Positions 1,369-15,982 of a DNA stretch of 15,982 nt are shown here, piece after piece. How positions within the stretch are numbered: the stretch's first letter is position 1; each line of letters opens with the position of its first letter. This DNA comes from a virus. Its lineage: Duplodnaviria; Heunggongvirae; Uroviricota; Caudoviricetes. The notes below the pieces were generated by a model that was not told the origin of the DNA, did no database searches, and was given only the letters and a program-made list of their open reading frames with translations. A program made the position numbers and the translations under genes. The stretch lies in the IMG/VR virus record IMGVR_UViG_2737471818_000008; one strand, given 5' to 3'.

Positions 1369-1444
1369 GCCGATATAGCTCAGTTGGTAGAGCAGCGCAT
1401 TCGTAATGCGAAGGTCGTAGGTTCGACTCCTATTATCGGCACCA
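1369..1444 (+). tRNA. thrW: tRNA-Thr (anticodon CGU), thrW-like; probable integration target of the downstream element
   Basis: 76-nt cloverleaf read directly: acceptor stem GCCGATA/TATCGGC, D-arm GCTC-AGTTGGTA-GAGC, anticodon stem GCGCA/TGCGA with loop TTCGTAA (anticodon CGT), T-arm GTAGG-TTCGACT-CCTAT, 3' ACCA. Lies directly downstream of proA as thrW does in E. coli. Confidence 0.9.
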
Positions 1445-1535
1445 TTCTAACGTCTCCCCAAGTCTACTCAAGTATTTAAAAACCTCTTATAATCCGCATG
1501 TTAGCGCCCCTTTTAGTCTTTTGACGTCTACTTAA

Positions 1536-1607
1536 GTACCCCAAAATCTACAGTCAATTGGGGGTACTTTTGGGGGTATTTGCTGTTCGGTTTAGTGGAG
1601 GTACCCC
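1536..1607. promoter_or_regulatory. Cluster of GGGGTAC/GTACCCC repeats just upstream of int (candidate int promoter/operator or integrase arm-type sites)
   Basis: Seen directly: GTACCCC (1536-1542), GGGGGTAC (1560-1567), GGGGGTA (1572-1578), GGTACCCCC (1599-1607), in both orientations within about 70 bp and ending 4 bp before the int start codon. Confidence 0.4.
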
Positions 1608-1610
1608 CAA

Positions 1611-2825
1611 GTGAAACTCAATGCCCGTCAAATAGACACTGCCAAGCCAAAAGAGAAGGCTTACAAGCTGGCTGATGGTGGTGGTCTGTATCTCCTGGTA
1701 AAACCTAGTGGAGGAAAATACTGGCGCTTTAAATATCGTGTAGCTGGTAAAGAGAAGCTGTTAGCACTAGGTGTGTATCCTGAAGTTACCTTGGCTGATG
1801 CTCGTGCAAAACGTGAAGAAGCTAAAAGGGGTATCGCTGGGGGTATCGATCCGATGGAAGCGAAACGAGAGGAAAAGATTGCCCGGGAAACGCAGTTAAA
1901 CAATACCTTCAAAGATATTGCCCTTGAGTGGCACAGCAGCAAATTAAAAAAATGGTCTGCTGGTTATGCTTCAGATATCCTCGAAGCCTTCAACAAAGAT
2001 GTGTTCCCTTACATTGGCAAAAAACCAATCGCCGAAATCAAACCACTTGAACTTCTGAATGTGCTGCGACGCATCGAGGGGCGCGGTGCTACAGAAAAAG
2101 CCAAAAAAGTGAGGCAGCGGTGCGGGGAAGTTTTCCGCTATGCAATAGTCACTGGTCGCGCAGAGTATAACCCTGCCCCAGATCTTACTAGCGCGATGCA
2201 AGGCCATGAATCTAATCATTATCCTTTCCTCACAGCCAAAGAATTGCCTGATTTTTTCAAGGCATTGTCCAGTTACTCAGGAAGTGCATTGGTTGTTATG
2301 GCGGCTCGTCTACTGATTATCACTGGTTTGCGAACTGGCGAACTGCGCGGTGCATTATGGGATGAAATCGATCTCAACAAGGCTATCTGGGAGATACCTG
2401 CTTCACGGATGAAAATGCGTCGCCCTCATGTGGTGCCTTTGTCTAAGCAGGCTCTTTCTCTTATTGGGCAGATTAAAGAATTAACTGGTAATTATCCGCT
2501 TATGTTTCCCGGCCGTAATGATCCAAGGAAAACAATGAGCGAGGCTAGCATAAACCAAGTATTTAAACGCATCGGCTATAACGGAAAGGTTACTGGTCAT
2601 GGATTCCGGCACACCATGAGCACGATTTTACATGAGCAGGGCTATAACACCGCGTGGATAGAAACGCAGCTTGCACACGTTGATAAGAACTCAATTCGTG
2701 GCACGTACAATCATGCGCAATATCTGGACGGGCGGCGCGAGATGCTCCAGTGGTACGCCGACTATATGGATTCGCTCGAACATGGCGGTAACGTGGTGCA
2801 TGGCAAGTTCGGAAAATGTGGATGA
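1611..2825 (+). CDS. int: Site-specific tyrosine recombinase, P4-type integrase
   Basis: 404-aa ORF with GTG start and GGAG 10 nt upstream. N-terminal arm-binding region typical of P4-family integrases (AKPKEKAYKLADGGGLYLLVKPSGGKYWRFKYR). Catalytic signatures present: RTGELR, HGFRHT (H-x-x-R) and a C-terminal Tyr (RGTYNHAQY). Adjacent to a tRNA gene. Confidence 0.92.
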   Translation: MKLNARQIDTAKPKEKAYKLADGGGLYLLVKPSGGKYWRFKYRVAGKEKLLALGVYPEVTLADARAKREEAKRGIAGGIDPMEAKREEKIARETQLNNTFKDIALEWHSSKLKKWSAGYASDILEAFNKDVFPYIGKKPIAEIKPLELLNVLRRIEGRGATEKAKKVRQRCGEVFRYAIVTGRAEYNPAPDLTSAMQGHESNHYPFLTAKELPDFFKALSSYSGSALVVMAARLLIITGLRTGELRGALWDEIDLNKAIWEIPASRMKMRRPHVVPLSKQALSLIGQIKELTGNYPLMFPGRNDPRKTMSEASINQVFKRIGYNGKVTGHGFRHTMSTILHEQGYNTAWIETQLAHVDKNSIRGTYNHAQYLDGRREMLQWYADYMDSLEHGGNVVHGKFGKCG

Positions 2826-2953
2826 CTGGTTGCGTATACAGTAGTAGACTTTGAGCGACGAAAGAAAAGGCTGTGTCTAGGGTCGCTCCCGAAAATCCGT
2901 ACACCTCGACGGACTGGTACAGCCACTACAGTAGAGGACGCTGAGGTGTGCGT

Positions 2954-4253: not shown

Positions 4254-5054
4254 ATGAAATTTCCAAAAACGCCCGTACAGGGGCGGGGCTTCGTTCGGCC
4301 TGAAAACCAGAATCTGCAAAATTTCGGCGAAATTATCCCGATTATTTCCGGCGTTATTGGCGGGAGTGAAACCACTATTGTTAGCGCCAGAGCGTTACAT
4401 AAGGCGTTAGGTGTAGGGCGCGTTTTCCGTTCGTGGATCAAGGGGCGCATTGAAGAATACGGGTTCACGGAAGGCGTGGATTATGAGGTTGTTGAATATT
4501 TGAGCCGACCCGATCCGGTGAGCGCAAAATCTCGCCAGCAAACCGCTCTTGAGTACATCATCACAGTGAACATGGCGAAAGAACTGGCGATGGTAGAACG
4601 CACCGAACAGGGGCGCGCCGTTCGTCAGTACTTCATCAAATGCGAGGAAGAGCTACACAAGGTTGCGCCTGTACGTTCCGCAGCGTTACGCCGGGAACTG
4701 AAAGCCCGTATCACAGTTGCCAGCTACTTTAAGCCAATGTGTGCCGCGCTGGAGGCGTACCGGGCTGAACTGGGTAAAAACACTCTACAGCACCACTACA
4801 CCACGGAAGCCAATATGCTGGCGCGTATCGTGCTGGGTGGCATGACTGCAAAACAGTGGGCGCAGGCGAACGGCATCACAGGCGAACCACGCGACCACAT
4901 GAGCACGTTGCAGCTTGAGCACCTTTCTTACCTTGAGCAGAGCAATATCACGCTGATTGAGTTAGGCCAGGACTACCACCAGCGGAAAGCTGAATTAATT
5001 CGCCTTTCGCAGCGTTGGTTAGCCCGTCGCATGGAGGAAAACAGCCATGTGTAA
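4254..5054 (+). CDS. Phage antirepressor-like protein (AntA/ORF6N-type N-terminal domain)
   Basis: 266-aa ORF with CAGGAG upstream. The N-terminal stretch SARALHKALGVGRVFRSWIKGRIEEYGFTEGVDYEVV matches the pattern I associate with AntA/ORF6N antirepressor N-domains. The domain assignment is from memory and needs an HMM search. Confidence 0.6.
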   Translation: MKFPKTPVQGRGFVRPENQNLQNFGEIIPIISGVIGGSETTIVSARALHKALGVGRVFRSWIKGRIEEYGFTEGVDYEVVEYLSRPDPVSAKSRQQTALEYIITVNMAKELAMVERTEQGRAVRQYFIKCEEELHKVAPVRSAALRRELKARITVASYFKPMCAALEAYRAELGKNTLQHHYTTEANMLARIVLGGMTAKQWAQANGITGEPRDHMSTLQLEHLSYLEQSNITLIELGQDYHQRKAELIRLSQRWLARRMEENSHV

Positions 5055-6348
5055 CGCTCTGACCGTTACAAAAAGAGAAAGCGCCCCGTTGCCGGAGCGC
5101 CTTTGTGAACGAATAGCCTACTGCGCCATATTGCTTACTGTCTACGGGGCAGATTATAGCGTTGTGGTCGCACAGAGTGAAGGCGCTGATCACCGTTTCT
5201 ACAGCACGCCGGAAATGCAGAATATTTTGCTGCAAAATGCCGTTGGTCACGCCGTCCGGAAAGCAAAAAATTTTGCTGGTGGTGCGACCGATACGATTTT
5301 GTCAGGTCGCCAGGTGCTGATTAATCTGATGTCTGATTTCGTTCTGGATAAAACAAAGGCGACCGCAGAGGGCCGCCAGTGGGAAAGCTACATACTTGAA
5401 CGCATCGCCAACAATGCCAGATTTGCGGCTGGTGGACAATGTGTCAGCTTTGCACCAATGACTCTATGTTTAACTGAGGGTCATTATGGTGAATATGCTG
5501 GCTTGCTGGTGGGCTATTCCTGCTCTTTAACATTGCCATGCCGCGATGTTTTCCAGGTATGCGATCCCATTTTTGTGCGCCTGTACTCTTTAAGGAATTG
5601 CTCAAGGGCAAAAGCACATGGCGCGAATCTTTCTGATTCATGCTCTATCTTTCTGCGCCGTCTTTTCCGTGCCGGTGATGGTGTATTGGTTGATTCTTTG
5701 TTGGTCATGGCGCTGCCCTGTAAAACGATGCACCGTAGTTCCTCACACCACGGCGCTGGTGATGGTTACTCCTGTTCTTTGGCCTTGCGGCGCTGGCGGT
5801 ATTCAACTTCTCGCTTTAATGCTGCTGTTACAAACTGCCCTGTACTTTCACCAGGCATTTTTACCGCCTCAACATTGTTCATAACTTCATGCGGAACCCT
5901 TGCCGCAACTGTTTGTGATTTTGCGTTTACTGCTTTTGTCGCCATGTTGTGTACCCCTTACAAAAAACAAATGCAGTATGCAGGAAAAAAAATAAGTGTT
6001 CAACACTTGACGTGTTTAACACCTGGACTTAAATTGGTGTTCAACACCTTGTTGATGCAAGGTGCAGAAACGACAACGCCCCGCAGTGGTGGCACACATG
6101 CAGGACGTCTAACCACCAACGATAGCAAGAGTATCGAGGTAGCTATGAGAAATCATACCACACACCCGCAAGGGCGGGACTCGCACAACCTGAATAAATA
6201 CATCTGGCGTTTTATCGCCCTGAGCACGGCACAACCGCGCGTAATTCACATCGAGGCCACCAGCGAACAGGAAGCACGCCAGCAATCTCCTGATGGCTGC
6301 GTGATGGTATTCGCCGCCCGTATTCGCCAGGAGGTGGAACATGTGTAA
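5047..6348 (+). CDS. Hypothetical protein; only the 5' ~140 codons look coding. The 433-codon ORF is probably a chimeric read-through across an antisense gene, an intergenic operator region and a separate in-frame small gene
   Basis: Start ATG overlaps the stop of the upstream gene (ATGTGTAA). Codon usage over about 5047-5470 looks like normal coding sequence. Beyond that the translation becomes Cys/Ser/Thr-rich and crosses an operator/promoter cluster at 5996-6047. No in-frame stop exists before 6348. Confidence 0.25.
   Translation: MCNALTVTKRESAPLPERLCERIAYCAILLTVYGADYSVVVAQSEGADHRFYSTPEMQNILLQNAVGHAVRKAKNFAGGATDTILSGRQVLINLMSDFVLDKTKATAEGRQWESYILERIANNARFAAGGQCVSFAPMTLCLTEGHYGEYAGLLVGYSCSLTLPCRDVFQVCDPIFVRLYSLRNCSRAKAHGANLSDSCSIFLRRLFRAGDGVLVDSLLVMALPCKTMHRSSSHHGAGDGYSCSLALRRWRYSTSRFNAAVTNCPVLSPGIFTASTLFITSCGTLAATVCDFAFTAFVAMLCTPYKKQMQYAGKKISVQHLTCLTPGLKLVFNTLLMQGAETTTPRSGGTHAGRLTTNDSKSIEVAMRNHTTHPQGRDSHNLNKYIWRFIALSTAQPRVIHIEATSEQEARQQSPDGCVMVFAARIRQEVEHV
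5766..5945 (-). CDS. Small ribbon-helix-helix-like DNA-binding protein (59 aa), candidate repressor of the divergent promoter; not in the supplied ORF track because it is under 60 aa
   Basis: Hand-translated from the minus strand: MATKAVNAKSQTVAARVPHEVMNNVEAVKMPGESTGQFVTAALKREVEYRQRRKAKEQE. AAGGGG lies 8 nt upstream of the ATG. The pattern is strand (TVAARV), helix, loop, helix. Three palindromic operators lie immediately upstream. Confidence 0.4.
   Translation of the reverse strand: MATKAVNAKSQTVAARVPHEVMNNVEAVKMPGESTGQFVTAALKREVEYRQRRKAKEQE
5996..6047. promoter_or_regulatory. Divergent promoter/operator region: three GTGTT(C/T)AACAC palindromes overlapping a sigma70-like promoter
   Basis: Seen directly: GTGTTCAACAC (5996-6006), GTGTTTAACAC (6012-6022), GTGTTCAACAC (6037-6047). 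TTGACG (6007-6012), a 17-bp spacer, then TAAATT (6030-6035) forms a plus-strand promoter with operators flanking the -35 and overlapping the spacer and the region just downstream of the -10. Confidence 0.55.
6145..6348 (+). CDS. Small protein (67 aa), possibly Icd-like host cell-division inhibitor family; first gene of the rightward operon
   Basis: In-frame ATG at 6145 with GAGG 6 nt upstream, downstream of the operator/promoter cluster. MRNHTTHPQGRDSHNLNKYIWRFIALSTAQPRVIHIEATSEQEARQQSPDGCVMVFAARIRQEVEHV resembles my recollection of Icd-like small proteins in P4-like prophages. Unverified. Confidence 0.4.
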   Translation: MRNHTTHPQGRDSHNLNKYIWRFIALSTAQPRVIHIEATSEQEARQQSPDGCVMVFAARIRQEVEHV

Positions 6349-11009: not shown

Positions 11010-11048
11010 TGGTCGTGATTTTTTGGTGAAAAAAGAGAGGTGGTAAAA

Positions 11049-11627
11049 ATGCCAGCAAGCAAAGAAGATTTGCGATTAAAACTGATGGAGGTGGTTAACG
11101 CTCTGTCAGAGTCGCAGGGCAGCACTCCGCAGGAGATTATCGAAATTCTGAATGCGATCCCCGCACAGGATTTCATAAAAGAGGATAACGCTAATCAAAA
11201 CATCGTCGCGTCAGTCGAAGATGAATCCTCACTGGCAGAAGCCCAGGCTAAAGCAGATTCCGCATACAGCAATATGGGCCGTCGCGCTCCAGCCCCGTTT
11301 GCTGGTGAAAAGTCGATGGATTACCGCAAGCGTGCATTAATTGGTGCACAGAAGCTGGCTAAAAAATTCAGTGATGTGGATATTCGTTCCGTTTCAGATT
11401 CTGCAACGCTGGCGGTGCTGGAAGATCAGATTTACCAGGCTGCAAAAGACAGTGTTCAGTGGGCTGTGGAAAATACGCCGGGCTATTTGCGTAAAACCGT
11501 AAGAATGGATGAAGCCGGACGGCGGATTACTGAATATCAGGGGGATCCGAATAACTGGCTTAGTGCTTTCAAAATCCCTCCCCGTCGCCTGGTCAAAATT
11601 AACGTTGCAAGCCTCGCGGGGGCATGA
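11049..11627 (+). CDS. Hypothetical acidic protein (192 aa); candidate morphogenesis/packaging-interference protein
   Basis: ATG at 11049 with GAGAGG upstream (the ORF track start 11040 is probably too early). Normal coding composition. No similarity to P4 Psu, Delta or Sid recognised. Confidence 0.65.
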   Translation: MPASKEDLRLKLMEVVNALSESQGSTPQEIIEILNAIPAQDFIKEDNANQNIVASVEDESSLAEAQAKADSAYSNMGRRAPAPFAGEKSMDYRKRALIGAQKLAKKFSDVDIRSVSDSATLAVLEDQIYQAAKDSVQWAVENTPGYLRKTVRMDEAGRRITEYQGDPNNWLSAFKIPPRRLVKINVASLAGA

Positions 11628-11691: not shown

Positions 11692-12363
11692 ATGCTTTTA
11701 ACAGAAATTGAGGCGGCGAAGCAGATTCGGGACGGACAGCTACCGTCGCCTTATCAGTTTTCCAACATGTGGCTGGTTAACCTGCGTATCACAGGAACCG
11801 GAATGGCCTACCGCGCAGAAGAAAAAGAATTTGTCTGGCGTTCACCGCAAACTTATCTCAATCCGCAGTTCCTGGAACGTTGCGCCGGAGTACCCGTAAT
11901 TATCGACCATCCCGAAAGCAAAACCCTTGAAGACGTGGGCGAACGGTCGCGCATTATTGGCACCGTCATGTTGCCGTATATTCGCGGTGACGAGGTGTGG
12001 GGCGTATGCCGGATTTACGGGCAGGAAATCATCGATTACATCCAGAAAGCACGGGGGGAGGTATCCACCAGTCCGTCGGTTGTGTTTTGTGGTGCGTCCG
12101 GTGGGGCTGAAGTTCCTGATGTAATGGGCGAGGACAATTTTTTTATTGAGGGTACGCCATTTCTTATCGATCACGTTGCACTCGTACCGTTGGGCGTATG
12201 GGATAAGGATGGGAAACCATCGGGTGTGGAGGTAACAACGCCGACAGCAGAAGAGCAGCTTGCCGGAATGGTCCGGGACGTTATTGATGCGGCCTGCAAG
12301 CCAGCCCTGGAAAAACTGGAAGAAATATCCGGGCGGCTGGCTCAACTGGAAAAAGAAGGGTGA
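11692..12363 (+). CDS. Hypothetical protein (223 aa); weak prohead-protease-like motifs
   Basis: Clean ORF. Contains IIDHPES, FCGASGGAE and LIDHVAL, which could correspond to a His/Ser protease arrangement. Speculative. Confidence 0.65.
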   Translation: MLLTEIEAAKQIRDGQLPSPYQFSNMWLVNLRITGTGMAYRAEEKEFVWRSPQTYLNPQFLERCAGVPVIIDHPESKTLEDVGERSRIIGTVMLPYIRGDEVWGVCRIYGQEIIDYIQKARGEVSTSPSVVFCGASGGAEVPDVMGEDNFFIEGTPFLIDHVALVPLGVWDKDGKPSGVEVTTPTAEEQLAGMVRDVIDAACKPALEKLEEISGRLAQLEKEG

Positions 12364-12369
12364 GTCATA

Positions 12370-12897
12370 ATGCTGATGAGTAAGGCAGAATATGCCAAAC
12401 ACAAAGGCGTAAGCCGCCAGACAGTTTACGACTGGATCGAGAAAGGCGAAGTGGTCATGTCCGGTAAAAAAATCGATGTGGAAGCGACAGAGCAGCGGAA
12501 CAGCCCACCAGCACAGGGAAAAGACACAGTTTCTGAAATGTGGCCAGAGAGAACGCTGGAAATGACGTGGGGCGAGTTCTGGAAAGCAGTTAAGGCCAGA
12601 GACGGTAAAATTCCTGCGCCAGCAACGGACGAGGGCATACAGCAGCGTGTGCTGGATGCAGCCGGGGAATTAGGCTGGGAAGTGCACTTTCTTGATGATG
12701 GTGCTATCTGCCTTGAGGATTGCGACGGGCAGCATTACTTTGAACAATACAATTTGCGAGGTAATGCCAGGCTGGCAATTCGTATGCTGCGTTGCGAACT
12801 CTGCTATGTTGCAGGTGATTATGCCGATGAACTGGAATCATGGAGTGAAGCCGGGCTAAACGCCCTGGCTGAATGGGAAAAATCAGACCATCAATGA
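12370..12897 (+). CDS. HTH DNA-binding protein (175 aa); candidate small-terminase-like / packaging-redirection or regulatory protein
   Basis: The N-terminal SKAEYAKHKGVSRQTVYDWIEKGEV is a recognisable helix-turn-helix. The gene is followed immediately by a structured repeat array. Confidence 0.65.
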   Translation: MLMSKAEYAKHKGVSRQTVYDWIEKGEVVMSGKKIDVEATEQRNSPPAQGKDTVSEMWPERTLEMTWGEFWKAVKARDGKIPAPATDEGIQQRVLDAAGELGWEVHFLDDGAICLEDCDGQHYFEQYNLRGNARLAIRMLRCELCYVAGDYADELESWSEAGLNALAEWEKSDHQ

Positions 12898-13675: not shown

Positions 13676-14233
13676 TTTTCCTTTTGCTTATTACCATACA
13701 AAGCATGTGGAAAGAGAAGATTAACATGGAAAATATGGAGTTGGTGAGCAAATGAAAGGTACTGGTAGCCTGTCGACATCTATCAGCATGATGATGTGAG
13801 ACCGTATCAGTGGCGGAAACCGAACAGGCTGCGACGGTGAGCGGAGCGTTACGGTAAGCCAACAGCCAAGCCAAACATTAAGTCTACAGGTAAGGTTGTT
13901 TTTTTGCAGGTGGCATTAATTTGTATGTTGGTTTGAGGAGCATTTTTACTGAGACTGCCTGTTCTGGTTAGTTTTTTCGTATGATATACACCTCATCAAA
14001 ATTGTCCGACAGTGTGGAGCGGCGTGGCGGGGAGAGTATTGTGTGCTAGAGATTATAGTTACACTTTAATCTACGACACGATCGTAATTTTTCACTCTTC
14101 TTTTCAGATAAGCTACTACTGAGTTCACAAAAATAACATTATTTTATATCCATGTGTTATCTTTATCTGATATTAATGTGCTGTTCGGTCTTTTTTTGAC
14201 TGCAAACGGCATTAATCATATTAAGGAAACCAA

Positions 14234-15982
14234 GTGAAAATATCTTTTTTTGGCGTAAATAACTTTAGGACAATATCAGGTGGCATTGGTAATAATAGAA
14301 TAATATTTAAAGATAGCAATACGCTTTTCATTTACGGGGCAAACAATGCTGGAAAATCAACTTATTTAAAAGCATATATGTTTTTTTACAGTAATGAAAA
14401 ACCTATCATTGATGATTTCTTTAAACGAGACGACAATAATTCTATTGAGTTTGAATTAGAAGTTCAACTTGATGACTTGGATAAAGAAAGAATAGAAGCC
14501 AAAGCACCGAAGCAAAAGGAAAGTTATAAGAAGTATTTAAATAATGATTTTATTAGAATTAAGAAAGTATGGAGTAAAAATGGAACAAGAATAGAGGATA
14601 AAAATTATACTTATGATTATAGTAAAGGAGATAGCGGCGAGTATGATGAAGTTGGATATGCAACGATTGGTTTGCATCAGGTCTTCCAATCTTGTTTGCC
14701 AAAACCTGTATTTATAAAGGCTATGCCAACAGAGGAAGAAGCTAAGAAGATTCTTAATGAAATCCTAAAGATGATGGCTGAAAATACACTTAAAACATCT
14801 GATCTTGATGAATTAAAAGCAGCTCAGAATAAAATAAAAGAATTACAAGACAAAATGTATGATCCAGAATTGATTGAGACCTATCAGAATTCAGTTAACG
14901 GATACTTTAACAAGATATTCGGTGATACTGCTATATGCTTCAAAGATCAAAAAGATAGGGTTGTTTGGACGGAGAATAAGCTTGGCAGAGATTTTGAAAT
15001 TGAGTTTATGAAAAAAAATAGCCAAGGGGAGTTTGATGGCAATATCCCTTCAAGTTATAGCAGTGTAGGTCATGGAACTATTAGGACTGCAATATTTACA
15101 TTATTATTGATGAGAGATGTAGCAGAGCGTTTTGAAAGAAGGCTTGGACGTAAGGATTACATGGTTCTGTTTGAGGAGCCTGAGCTATTTCTCTATCCTA
15201 GAATGGTGAAGGAACTTCGTGAATTGATTTATCAGGTGAGCACTGAAGACCTTCCATATCAAGTACTTTGTGCCTCACATTCATCTTCCATGATAGATCT
15301 TTCAAAGCCTAAATCTTCGATAATACGATTAGTTAATAATTCTACTGGAACTAAATCATATCAAATTAATGATCAATTTTTGAAGGATGCAAAAGGCATT
15401 GCTACAAATGCTGAACTTAAACAAGAAATGTATGAAGTTTTGAGGTTTAACCCTTATATTTGTGAATCATTCTACGCTGATGAGGTGCTTCTGATTGAGG
15501 GGCCAACAGAAGAAATAATATGTAGAGCTTTTTTACAAGAAACCCCATCAGATAAATCTATATTCGTATTGAACTGTGGTACGGTTAATAACATTCCTTT
15601 TTATCAAAAAATCTTCTCAAGGTTTAATATAAAATATCATGTGATCTGTGATACAGATAAAGCAGAAATAGTTACCGTAGATCAATCTGGCAATGCAGAT
15701 TTTGATTCTGGAATACAGAAAACAATTTCAGAACAGTATAGGAATGATTGTACTGCAATGAATGGTAATATAGGACTACTTCGAACTCATAACATTACAT
15801 TTGAACCTGCTCATCAGGATGTTAGTATTCCTGACTTTTTGAGATTTGTTGATTGCGGTGATAGAAGCAAACCATTTAATGCAAACTTGTACTGGAAGGA
15901 TATTTTAAGGCCAAATATATCACATCAAGATATAAATAAAGTGCCTATAATTAAGTATTTGAATGAAATAATAGCACATTAA
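14234..15982 (+). CDS. OLD-family ATP-dependent nuclease (N-terminal ABC-type ATPase plus C-terminal TOPRIM domain); class 1 OLD or Gabija GajA-like; candidate anti-phage defence protein
   Basis: 582-aa ORF with GTG start and AAGGAAA upstream, in strongly AT-rich DNA. Motifs read directly: Walker A GANNAGKST (near 14336-14362), Walker B MVLFEEPELF (near 15161-15190), H-loop-like ASHS, TOPRIM glutamate LLIEGPTEE (near 15491-15517) and DxD ICDTDK (near 15644-15661). Size matches P2 Old and GajA. Confidence 0.85.
   Translation: MKISFFGVNNFRTISGGIGNNRIIFKDSNTLFIYGANNAGKSTYLKAYMFFYSNEKPIIDDFFKRDDNNSIEFELEVQLDDLDKERIEAKAPKQKESYKKYLNNDFIRIKKVWSKNGTRIEDKNYTYDYSKGDSGEYDEVGYATIGLHQVFQSCLPKPVFIKAMPTEEEAKKILNEILKMMAENTLKTSDLDELKAAQNKIKELQDKMYDPELIETYQNSVNGYFNKIFGDTAICFKDQKDRVVWTENKLGRDFEIEFMKKNSQGEFDGNIPSSYSSVGHGTIRTAIFTLLLMRDVAERFERRLGRKDYMVLFEEPELFLYPRMVKELRELIYQVSTEDLPYQVLCASHSSSMIDLSKPKSSIIRLVNNSTGTKSYQINDQFLKDAKGIATNAELKQEMYEVLRFNPYICESFYADEVLLIEGPTEEIICRAFLQETPSDKSIFVLNCGTVNNIPFYQKIFSRFNIKYHVICDTDKAEIVTVDQSGNADFDSGIQKTISEQYRNDCTAMNGNIGLLRTHNITFEPAHQDVSIPDFLRFVDCGDRSKPFNANLYWKDILRPNISHQDINKVPIIKYLNEIIAH

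What the first reader, a model, noticed from the sequence alone, without database searches (positions are those of the whole stretch)
14234..15982. OLD-family ATPase-TOPRIM nuclease in AT-rich cargo at the window edge: candidate anti-phage defence
The 582-aa protein carries an ABC-type ATPase (Walker A GANNAGKST, Walker B LFEEPE, H-loop ASHS) fused to a TOPRIM nuclease (EGPTEE, DTD). That architecture defines the OLD family (P2 Old, Gabija GajA). The gene is visibly far more AT-rich than the rest of the element and sits in the distal accessory part of a P4/PICI-like satellite, where defence cargo is known to concentrate. Because the gene ends at the last base of the window, a partner gene (for example a GajB-like UvrD helicase) cannot be confirmed or excluded, so it may be a standalone class 1 OLD, Gabija, or an undescribed OLD-based variant.
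Basis: partly seen in the sequence, partly recalled or inferred. Interest (0 to 1): 0.8.

Follow-up and report, generated by a model that had tools for sequence, protein, structure and literature searches.

The report
Standalone OLD defence nuclease in satellite
The gene encodes a single-gene (class 1) OLD ATPase-nuclease, a known kind of anti-phage protein, carried as swappable cargo next to the packaging site of a phage satellite in E. coli; it is real and intact, but it is an ordinary example of its kind.

Summary
Near-identical public genomes supply the missing downstream sequence. After the stop codon come a strong hairpin, a dead integrase fragment and attR. No helicase, reverse transcriptase or DUF4435 gene follows, here or next to homologs in E. 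coli, Enterobacter and Vibrio. It is therefore a standalone class 1 OLD, not Gabija. The best profile match is PADLOC 'Old' (5e-63, against 7e-20 for GajA). The closest solved folds are TsOLD, GajA and the Retron-Eco8 OLD. dN/dS is about 0.05. The gene lies in a cargo slot bounded by a P2-family cos site (14021-14039) and a truncated P4-type int, inside a thrW-integrated satellite that lacks psu, delta and sid. Sister elements carry gapS1, sieB or unknown genes in the same slot. Standard tools and NCBI already recognise the protein. Its target (tRNA as in P2 Old, or DNA as in Vc OLD) and its trigger cannot be determined in silico. Verdict: a new member of a known kind, of modest interest.

The parts
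14234..15982 (+). OLD gene: 582-aa class 1 OLD ATPase-TOPRIM nuclease (GTG start, TAA stop)
   Evidence: hhalign to P2 Old gives 98.6% probability over aa 32-475. dN/dS is 0.04-0.05.
14336..14362 (+). Walker A / P-loop GANNAGKST (aa 35-43; K41 aligns with P2 Old K37)
   Evidence: K41 is invariant in 29/29 family members.
14732..14917 (+). Three-helix insert in the ATPase domain (aa 167-228), the probable dimerization domain
   Evidence: Helices 167-183, 188-207 and 211-228 in the AlphaFold model, but with low pLDDT. The role is assigned by analogy with TsOLD (PMC7049728).
15167..15199 (+). Walker B LFEEPE plus D-loop LFLYP (aa 312-322). E314 aligns with P2 D299 and Ts E276. Y321 takes the place of the D-loop His (P2 H306, Ts H283).
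   Evidence: The D-loop position is Y in 28 and F in 1 of 29 sequences.
15272..15283 (+). H-loop ASHS (H349 aligns with P2 H332)
15470..15658 (+). OLD-type TOPRIM core (aa 413-475). Metal A ligands are E422, D473 and D475. The first metal B ligand is E426.
   Evidence: Pfam PF20469 2.6e-14. Aligned with P2 E398/E402/D453/D455. All invariant.
15662..15979 (+). Subfamily-specific C-terminal module (aa 477-582) with invariant R517, H519, T522-F-E524-P-A-H527 and K546. T522/E524 are the inferred remaining metal B ligands and K546 the inferred catalytic base-equivalent.
   Evidence: Not covered by any profile. pLDDT is about 90. Conserved end to end only in relatives of at least 44% identity. The residue roles are inferred from the S/T/D-x-E pattern in PMC7049728 and were not tested.
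14223..14228 (+). Shine-Dalgarno AAGGAA, 5 nt before the GTG
   Evidence: Read directly from the sequence. Conserved as AAGGGA in the P4-borne copy.
14040..14233 (+). AT-rich leader or promoter region that travels with the OLD gene (about 85% identical in the P4-borne copy)
   Evidence: The consensus scan gave no promoter call here.
14021..14039 (+). P2-family cos-like site GGCGTGGCGGGGAGAGTAT, the left border of the cargo slot
   Evidence: 15/19 to the annotated P2 cosR. 17/19 to the published PSP3 cos (PMC5261728). The only match in the window. Found 195-215 bp upstream of OLD in all enterobacterial OLD loci fetched.
1369..1444 (+). tRNA-Thr(CGT) thrW. Its 3' end (1428-1444) is the attL core.
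   Evidence: A copy, TCCTATTATCG-CACCA, lies at L001 18746-18761, about 765 bp beyond the window end.
1557..1579 (+). 23-bp GGGGGTAC-rich repeat just inside attL, repeated just inside attR; probably an arm-type site
   Evidence: Exact repeat at L001 18662-18684. The function is inferred.
1611..2825 (+). The element's functional tyrosine integrase
   Evidence: Pfam Arm-DNA-bind_3, Phage_int_M and Phage_integrase. 38% identical to the P4-type int of L002.

Best explanation
This is a single-gene class 1 OLD nuclease that most likely acts as an anti-phage, abortive-infection effector.

Shown here:
- The protein has an N-terminal ABC-type ATPase with a helical insert and a C-terminal OLD-type TOPRIM nuclease.
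- All P2 Old/TsOLD catalytic positions that can be aligned are invariant: K41, E314/E315, H349, E422, E426, D473, D475.
- The gene is under strong purifying selection.
- It has no partner gene in any context examined.
- It occupies a slot bounded by a P2-type cos site and a truncated P4-type integrase, in a thrW-integrated satellite. Sister elements carry other anti-phage genes (gapS1, sieB) in the same slot.

Inferred by analogy with P2 Old, Vc OLD and TsOLD:
- The protein dimerises through the helical insert.
- An infection cue licenses ATP binding and hydrolysis.
- The TOPRIM two-metal site then cuts double-stranded nucleic acid. The target would be either tRNA anticodon stems (as for P2 Old) or replicating phage DNA by nicking (as for Vc OLD).
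- This stops the infected cell from yielding phage, while sparing the P2-family helper that the satellite needs.

The cassette (cos, leader, OLD, terminator) probably moves between satellites by recombination within the cos and int flanks.
For: Domains and motifs.

Profile matches: PADLOC Old 5.3e-63 against the best GajA at 7.2e-20. hhalign to P2 Old gives 98.6% probability over 399 columns. phmmer to TsOLD 6P74 gives 3.5e-6.

No partner: downstream there are only a hairpin (-27 kcal/mol, z -5.1), int pseudogene pieces and attR. The annotated contexts agree. There is no retron RNA.

Selection: dN/dS 0.03-0.05.

Hotspot: cos, the truncated int (delta-int) shared by all cargo variants, and alternative cargos.

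Precedents: class 1 OLD defence in PMC12392090 and PMC12445682; the cos-adjacent hotspot in PMC9122126.
Against: No phenotype data exist for this protein or for any member of its subfamily.

It is only about 24% identical to P2 Old over 215 aa and about 15% to TsOLD, so target and trigger cannot be transferred with confidence.

The D-loop histidine that is essential in P2 Old (H306A is dead, PMC7049728) is Tyr or Phe here.

The basic residue 7 positions after the metal B Glu in P2 and Ts is not conserved here (S531 is variable), so the K546 assignment is a guess.

No consensus promoter was found.

The dimerization insert is modelled with low confidence.
Confidence: 0.8

Rival explanations
1. 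It is the GajA half of a Gabija (class 2) system whose GajB helicase lies just beyond the window.
For: GajA profiles do hit (best 7.2e-20), and GajA is the top Foldseek match. The window ends at the stop codon.
Against: The sequence beyond the window is known. It holds a hairpin, a dead int fragment, attR and then the chromosomal yagP'/pao genes. In the P4-like copy an intact int gene begins 34 bp after the stop. No helicase lies next to homologs in Vibrio or Enterobacter. The Old profile scores 212 bits against 69 for GajA.
Confidence: 0.02
2. The nuclease serves the satellite's own life cycle, for example by attacking or restraining the helper phage genome as PLE NixI does, rather than defending against unrelated phages.
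For: It lies next to the packaging site of a helper-dependent element. Satellites are known to carry helper-directed nucleases (my own knowledge).
Against: The slot is interchangeable with gapS1, sieB and unrelated genes in otherwise near-identical elements, so the gene is not part of the core life cycle. A 65%-identical homolog sits alone in a Vibrio chromosome without any satellite. The cassette occurs in two different satellite backbones.
Confidence: 0.07
3. It is an OLD-family ATPase with a non-defence cellular role in DNA repair or the cell cycle, as reported for archaeal Cran1.
For: A non-defence OLD class exists (PMC12796447, abstract seen). The fold resembles Rad50/SMC/RecF heads.
Against: It is low-GC cargo on mobile elements. 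It is present in only 2 of the 5,426 complete E. coli genomes at megablast (mode 'near') sensitivity. It is flanked by cos and att sites.
Confidence: 0.04
4. It is a decaying or inactive remnant, like the integrase fragment beside it.
For: It lies next to a pseudogenised int. The start codon is GTG. The D-loop His is absent.
Against: The ORF is intact and full-length in hundreds of contigs. dN/dS is 0.03-0.05 at dS 0.35-0.8. All other catalytic residues are invariant.
Confidence: 0.02

Closest known systems
P2 Old (class 1 OLD; UniProt P13520; NC_001895 old gene)
   Same: Single-gene ATPase-TOPRIM protein of almost the same length (586 against 582 aa). It is alignable from Walker A to the DxD motif (hhalign 98.6%). 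It is the best-scoring defence profile. It is also encoded in a cos-adjacent hotspot of a P2-family-associated mobile element (PMC9122126).
   Different: Only about 24% identity. The C-terminal 100 aa are not alignable. Walker B is Glu rather than Asp. The D-loop His306 is replaced by Tyr321. It is carried by satellites rather than by the phage. The trigger (RecBCD inhibition) and target (the tRNA-Thr(UGU) anticodon stem, PMC12445682) are untested here.
Vc OLD of Vibrio cholerae (class 1; HAS2513945.1; PMC12392090)
   Same: Standalone class 1 OLD on a small integrative defence element. ATPase and TOPRIM residues are required for defence. It acts by abortive infection.
   Different: The residue numbering (K48, D313, D468/D470) differs from K41, E314, D473/D475 here, which suggests a different clade. 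Vc OLD is a DNA nickase that acts independently of RecBCD. Its metal B triad is Glu/Glu/Asn, against the inferred Glu/Thr/Glu here.
Thermus scotoductus OLD (PDB 6P74)
   Different: About 15% identity. It is shorter (528 aa). Its D-loop is His. No defence role is known for it.
Gabija GajA (class 2 OLD)
   Different: It needs the adjacent GajB helicase, which is absent here. GajA profiles score far below the Old profile.
P4 psu-cos-[hotspot]-int defence locus (Rousset et al. 2022, PMC9122126)
   Same: The cargo lies immediately downstream of a P2-family cos and upstream of a convergent P4-type int sequence. An 87%-identical OLD copy sits in a genuine P4-like hotspot. The cargo varies between sister elements.
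   Different: The backbone here has no psu, delta or sid. The flanking int is a truncated pseudogene. The working integrase is at the other end of the element and is only 38% identical.

Membership tests
Class 1 OLD family nuclease | N-terminal ABC-type ATPase with Walker A Lys, Walker B acidic residue plus Glu, and H-loop His | tested here: met
   AAA_15 and AAA_21 above gathering score. K41, E314/E315 and H349 align with P2 K37, D299/E300 and H332 and are invariant.
Class 1 OLD family nuclease | C-terminal OLD-type TOPRIM with the metal A triad (Glu ... Asp-x-Asp) | tested here: met
   PF20469 2.6e-14. E422, D473 and D475 align with P2 E398, D453 and D455 and are invariant.
Class 1 OLD family nuclease | Metal B ligands and a basic transition-state residue (Ts D381/S478/E480/R487; P2 E402/D541/E543/K550) | tested here: inconclusive
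   E426 aligns with P2 E402. The position 7 residues after E524 is a variable Ser. K546 is only a candidate.
Class 1 OLD family nuclease | Single gene: no adjacent UvrD-like helicase, reverse transcriptase/ncRNA or DUF4435 partner | tested here: met
   Annotated and ORF-level contexts in 13 OLD-bearing loci from E. coli, Enterobacter and Vibrio. No Rfam retron RNA.
Class 1 OLD family nuclease | Overall fold like TsOLD, with a helical dimerization insert in the ATPase | tested here: met
Class 1 OLD family nuclease | Anti-phage activity that depends on the ATPase and the nuclease | not testable with these tools
   This needs plaque assays with K41A and D473A/D475A mutants.
Gabija (class 2 OLD, GajA) | Adjacent GajB UvrD/PcrA-like helicase | tested here: not met
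   No such gene within several kb in any context.
Gabija (class 2 OLD, GajA) | The best sequence-profile match is GajA | tested here: not met
   The best GajA model scores 69 bits; Old scores 212 bits.
Retron-associated OLD (class 3) | Adjacent reverse transcriptase and msr/msd ncRNA; match to the Eco8 effector model | tested here: not met
   No RT gene. No Rfam hit. NF038234 scores 25 bits against a cut-off of 250.
PARIS (class 4; AriA/AriB or fused) | DUF4435-type TOPRIM partner or fusion | tested here: not met
   No DUF4435 hit. AriA and AriAB models match only part of the ATPase.
P4-type cos-adjacent defence hotspot | Variable cargo directly next to a P2-family cos site and bounded by int | tested here: met
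   cos at 14021-14039. Delta-int to the right. Five different cargos in sister elements.
P4-like satellite (backbone) | Core genes psu, delta and sid, plus an alpha-type primase with a Zn-ribbon/Toprim domain | tested here: not met
   None are annotated or detected. The primase has only D5_N, DUF5906 and Pox_D5 domains. The backbone fits a PICI-like gene set (int, alpA, primase-helicase, terS-like HTH).

The most novel reading that the evidence does not exclude
This OLD subfamily has a D-loop Tyr instead of His and a private, invariant C-terminal module. It might use a target or trigger different from both P2 Old (tRNA, RecBCD inhibition) and Vc OLD (DNA nicking).

Its cassette also sits in a P4-type hotspot (cos ... 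delta-int) that has been transplanted into a non-P4, PICI-like satellite. That would give two homology anchors for exchanging defence cargo between satellite families that share P2-type helpers. A 2026 survey reported finding no such exchange with PICI or cfPICI elements (10.64898/2026.02.27.708500).
Probability: 0.3. Interest if true: 0.55.

Novelty: new member of a known kind. Interest (0 to 1): 0.3.

Why it matters
Only two class 1 OLD proteins have a documented anti-phage role, and they differ in target (tRNA against DNA) and in trigger. This subfamily is a convenient third test case:
- It is compact: about half a dozen full-length 50%-identity clusters among 1.84 billion representatives.
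- It is common in Enterobacteriaceae satellites.
- It is a single gene.

Its genomic setting also documents a cos/delta-int-bounded cargo slot in a satellite that is not P4-like. That bears on how defence genes move between satellite families. None of this overturns current understanding.

Tried and rejected
1. I first read the P4-type int fragment after the stop codon as a scar that had travelled with OLD from a P4-like satellite. Comparison with sister elements carrying gapS1 or DUF4747 showed that the fragment belongs to the backbone; only the ~290 bp nearest the cargo co-vary with it.

2. I first took the 23-bp repeat as the att core. The real core is the thrW 3' end. The repeat is probably an arm-type site.

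3. I first thought identical copies sat at two chromosomal sites. All I can say is that the right-hand neighbours differ (yagP'/pao or marR/vat). Both may be tandem islands at thrW.

4. BLAST of the cos region against phage genomes gave nothing because the match is too short. I replaced it with a direct comparison to the annotated P2 cosR and to published cos sequences.

5. The consensus promoter and terminator scan found no promoter upstream and missed the hairpin. Folding found the hairpin.

6. The supplements of Rousset et al. do not contain this protein by accession or by N-terminal sequence, but the files are truncated.

7. The Vc OLD sequence could not be obtained, so its relationship to this family is unresolved.

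8. Model coordinates and locus L002 were not exported to the sandbox. No active-site geometry check was possible.

Full report
**Observation.** An AAGGAA Shine-Dalgarno lies 5 nt upstream, and three homologs have ATG at the same codon. Every quoted motif is present:
- Walker A, aa 35-43
- Walker B LFEEPE, aa 312-317
- H-loop ASHS, aa 347-350
- EGPTEE, aa 422-427
- DTD, aa 473-475

Pfam gives AAA_15 (1.6e-20), AAA_21 (1.3e-14) and OLD-like_TOPRIM (2.6e-14), all above gathering score. The gene has 32.4% GC (GC3 25%), against 48.2% for the rest of the element.

**Where the window comes from and what lies beyond it.** The region matches E. coli EC11 (NZ_CP027255.1) over its whole length. Inside the element the two differ at one base, 14242. 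The window's left flank is proA plus tRNA-Thr thrW, whereas EC11 has another prophage there.

In EC11 the sequence after the stop codon contains, in order:
- an 18-bp-stem hairpin (-27 kcal/mol, z = -5.1);
- three frame-broken pieces of the C-terminal third of a P4-type integrase on the opposite strand (aa 225-338, 44-62% identity);
- a 23-bp repeat that also occurs next to the integrase gene;
- a copy of the thrW 3' end, which is attR;
- the chromosomal yagP'/paoDCBA genes.

No ORF of any size there is conserved. The element is about 15.3 kb, and OLD is its last intact gene.

**No partner anywhere.** Three further contexts agree:
- An 87%-identical copy (93% at the protein level) in E. coli 23AR0998 lies between psu and int of a classical P4-like satellite at ssrA. 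The int gene begins 34 bp after the stop.
- Copies in Enterobacter kobei lie beside ssrA/smpB in P4-like remnants.
- A 65%-identical copy in Vibrio lentus sits alone between phhAB and housekeeping genes.

Identical E. coli copies all lie in the same backbone. There is no helicase, reverse transcriptase or DUF4435 gene, and Rfam finds no retron RNA. Under the context-based classification (PMC10568477) this is class 1.

**Family placement.**
- PADLOC's Old model scores 5.3e-63 over aa 1-485. The best GajA model scores 7.2e-20 and AriA 2.9e-19 over the ATPase only.
- The NCBIfam Eco8-effector model scores 25 bits against a cut-off of 250.
- A profile of 29 family members aligns with P2 Old at 98.6% probability over 399 columns. 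Pairwise identity is about 24%.
- TsOLD (6P74) is the only PDB hit by sequence.
- An AlphaFold model (pTM 0.73; TOPRIM and C-terminus at pLDDT about 90) matches GajA, TsOLD and the Retron-Eco8 OLD about equally. Fold therefore confirms the family but not the class.

**Catalytic residues.** Using the residue sets of Schiltz et al. 2020 (PMC7049728) and the alignments:

| Role | P2 Old | This protein |
|---|---|---|
| Walker A | K37 | K41 |
| Walker B | D299 | E314 (Glu, as in TsOLD) |
| H-loop | H332 | H349 |
| Metal A | E398 / D453 / D455 | E422 / D473 / D475 |
| Metal B, first ligand | E402 | E426 |

All are invariant in 29/29 sequences. Two differences stand out:
- The D-loop histidine is essential in P2 Old. 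Here it is Tyr in 28 sequences and Phe in 1.
- The C-terminal 100 residues align with nothing outside the subfamily, yet they carry invariant R517, H519, T522-F-E524-P-A-H527 and K546.

T522/E524 fit the S/T/D-x-E metal B pattern, but I could not verify this in three dimensions.

**Is the gene functional?** Yes, by the available tests. dN/dS is 0.03-0.05 at dS 0.35-0.8 between the window, the P4-borne copy and the Enterobacter copy. The ORF is full-length in hundreds of contigs. The subfamily is compact. Only 54 of 1.84 billion cluster representatives score at or below 1e-30, and about six full-length clusters retain the C-terminal module.

**The setting.** The backbone has int, alpA, antA, an Icd-like gene, a D5_N/Pox_D5 primase-helicase, ProQ/FinO and PerC genes, a terS-like HTH protein and a protease-like protein. 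It has no psu, delta or sid. It is therefore PICI-like rather than P4-like.

Homology with the P4-borne copy begins at 14021-14039, GGCGTGGCGGGGAGAGTAT. This sequence matches the annotated P2 cosR at 15/19 and the published PSP3 cos at 17/19. The upstream CATYAAAA flank is also similar. The motif lies 195-215 bp upstream of OLD in every enterobacterial OLD locus fetched.

Sister elements with the same backbone carry other cargo in the slot:
- gapS1 in two strains;
- a DUF4747 gene plus a partner in two strains;
- an unannotated gene pair in one strain;
- sieB in one strain.

Several of them have their own cos-like variant. The truncated int to the right is shared by all cargo variants, and only its cargo-proximal ~290 bp co-vary with the cargo. 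The slot is therefore cos - cargo - delta-int. These are the flanks of the P4 hotspot described by Rousset et al. (PMC9122126), here inside a different backbone.

**Mechanism.** Shown: the architecture, the intact catalytic set, selection, solitary status and hotspot location. Inferred from P2 Old (PMC12445682), Vc OLD (PMC12392090) and TsOLD:
- a dimer forms through the helical insert;
- nuclease activity is gated by ATP hydrolysis;
- the two-metal TOPRIM site cleaves a double-stranded substrate;
- the outcome is abortive infection.

Whether the target is tRNA or DNA, and whether RecBCD inhibition is the trigger, cannot be decided here.

**Verdict.** The open point is resolved: this is a standalone class 1 OLD. 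It is a new, untested member of a known kind that standard tools already recognise, so interest is modest (0.3). The points worth a follow-up are the D-loop substitution, the private C-terminal module and the cos/delta-int slot in a non-P4 satellite.

Noticed in passing
window 14021-14039 (also L003 10743-10761, L015 6716-6734, and K99B L017 about 5560-5650, 19-mer GGCATGGTGGGGAGAGCAT seen in alignment A6): A non-P4, PICI-like satellite backbone carries a P2/PSP3-type cos site just before its cargo slot. Sister elements have diverged variants (GGTGTGCTGAGGAGAACAT, GGCATGGTGGGGAGAGCAT). This suggests that the family is packaged by P2-family helpers even though it lacks psu, delta and sid.
   Followed up: partly
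L001 18023-18362 (- strand), 41-380 bp beyond the window end: A pseudogenised C-terminal third of a P4-type integrase, with three in-frame stops. It is present after every cargo variant. Its cargo-proximal ~290 bp differ between cargo lineages, as expected if recombination breakpoints fall inside it.
   Followed up: yes
L016 6028-7787; L017 5703-7195; L018 6427-7919: The same slot in sister elements holds gene pairs with no known function: 356 + 229 aa hypotheticals, and a DUF4747 protein + 199 aa partner. By position these are candidate defence systems.
   Followed up: no
window 2870-2937: An Rfam int-alpA RNA motif (RF02996, 45.5 bits, above gathering score) lies between the integrase gene and the next ORF.
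   Followed up: no
window 11040-11627 and 11692-12363: Two adjacent ORFs match one PHROG (phrog_6216, 545 positions) in swapped order. The upstream ORF matches positions 409-544 and the downstream ORF positions 115-328. The downstream ORF also weakly resembles a head maturation protease. Some sister elements have a single 381-aa gene at this place.
   Followed up: no
window 5047-6348: The mechanical ORF list shows one uninterrupted 433-aa frame. RefSeq annotates the same stretch in EC11 as a truncated pseudogene, an opposite-strand YlcI/YnfO gene and a short Icd-like gene.
   Followed up: no
window 14242: A single A/G difference from EC11 turns codon 3 from ATA into ATG. RefSeq therefore starts the EC11 protein two codons later (580 aa), although homologs support the upstream start.
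   Followed up: yes
window 1500-1620 and L001 18640-18700: Several GGGGTAC/GTACCCC motifs cluster just inside both att ends, including the exact 23-bp repeat. They are probably integrase or AlpA arm-type binding sites.
   Followed up: partly
window 12370-12897: A 175-aa backbone protein has an N-terminal HTH that resembles small terminase subunits (phrog_57, 1.4e-7). It could redirect packaging, as in PICIs.
   Followed up: no
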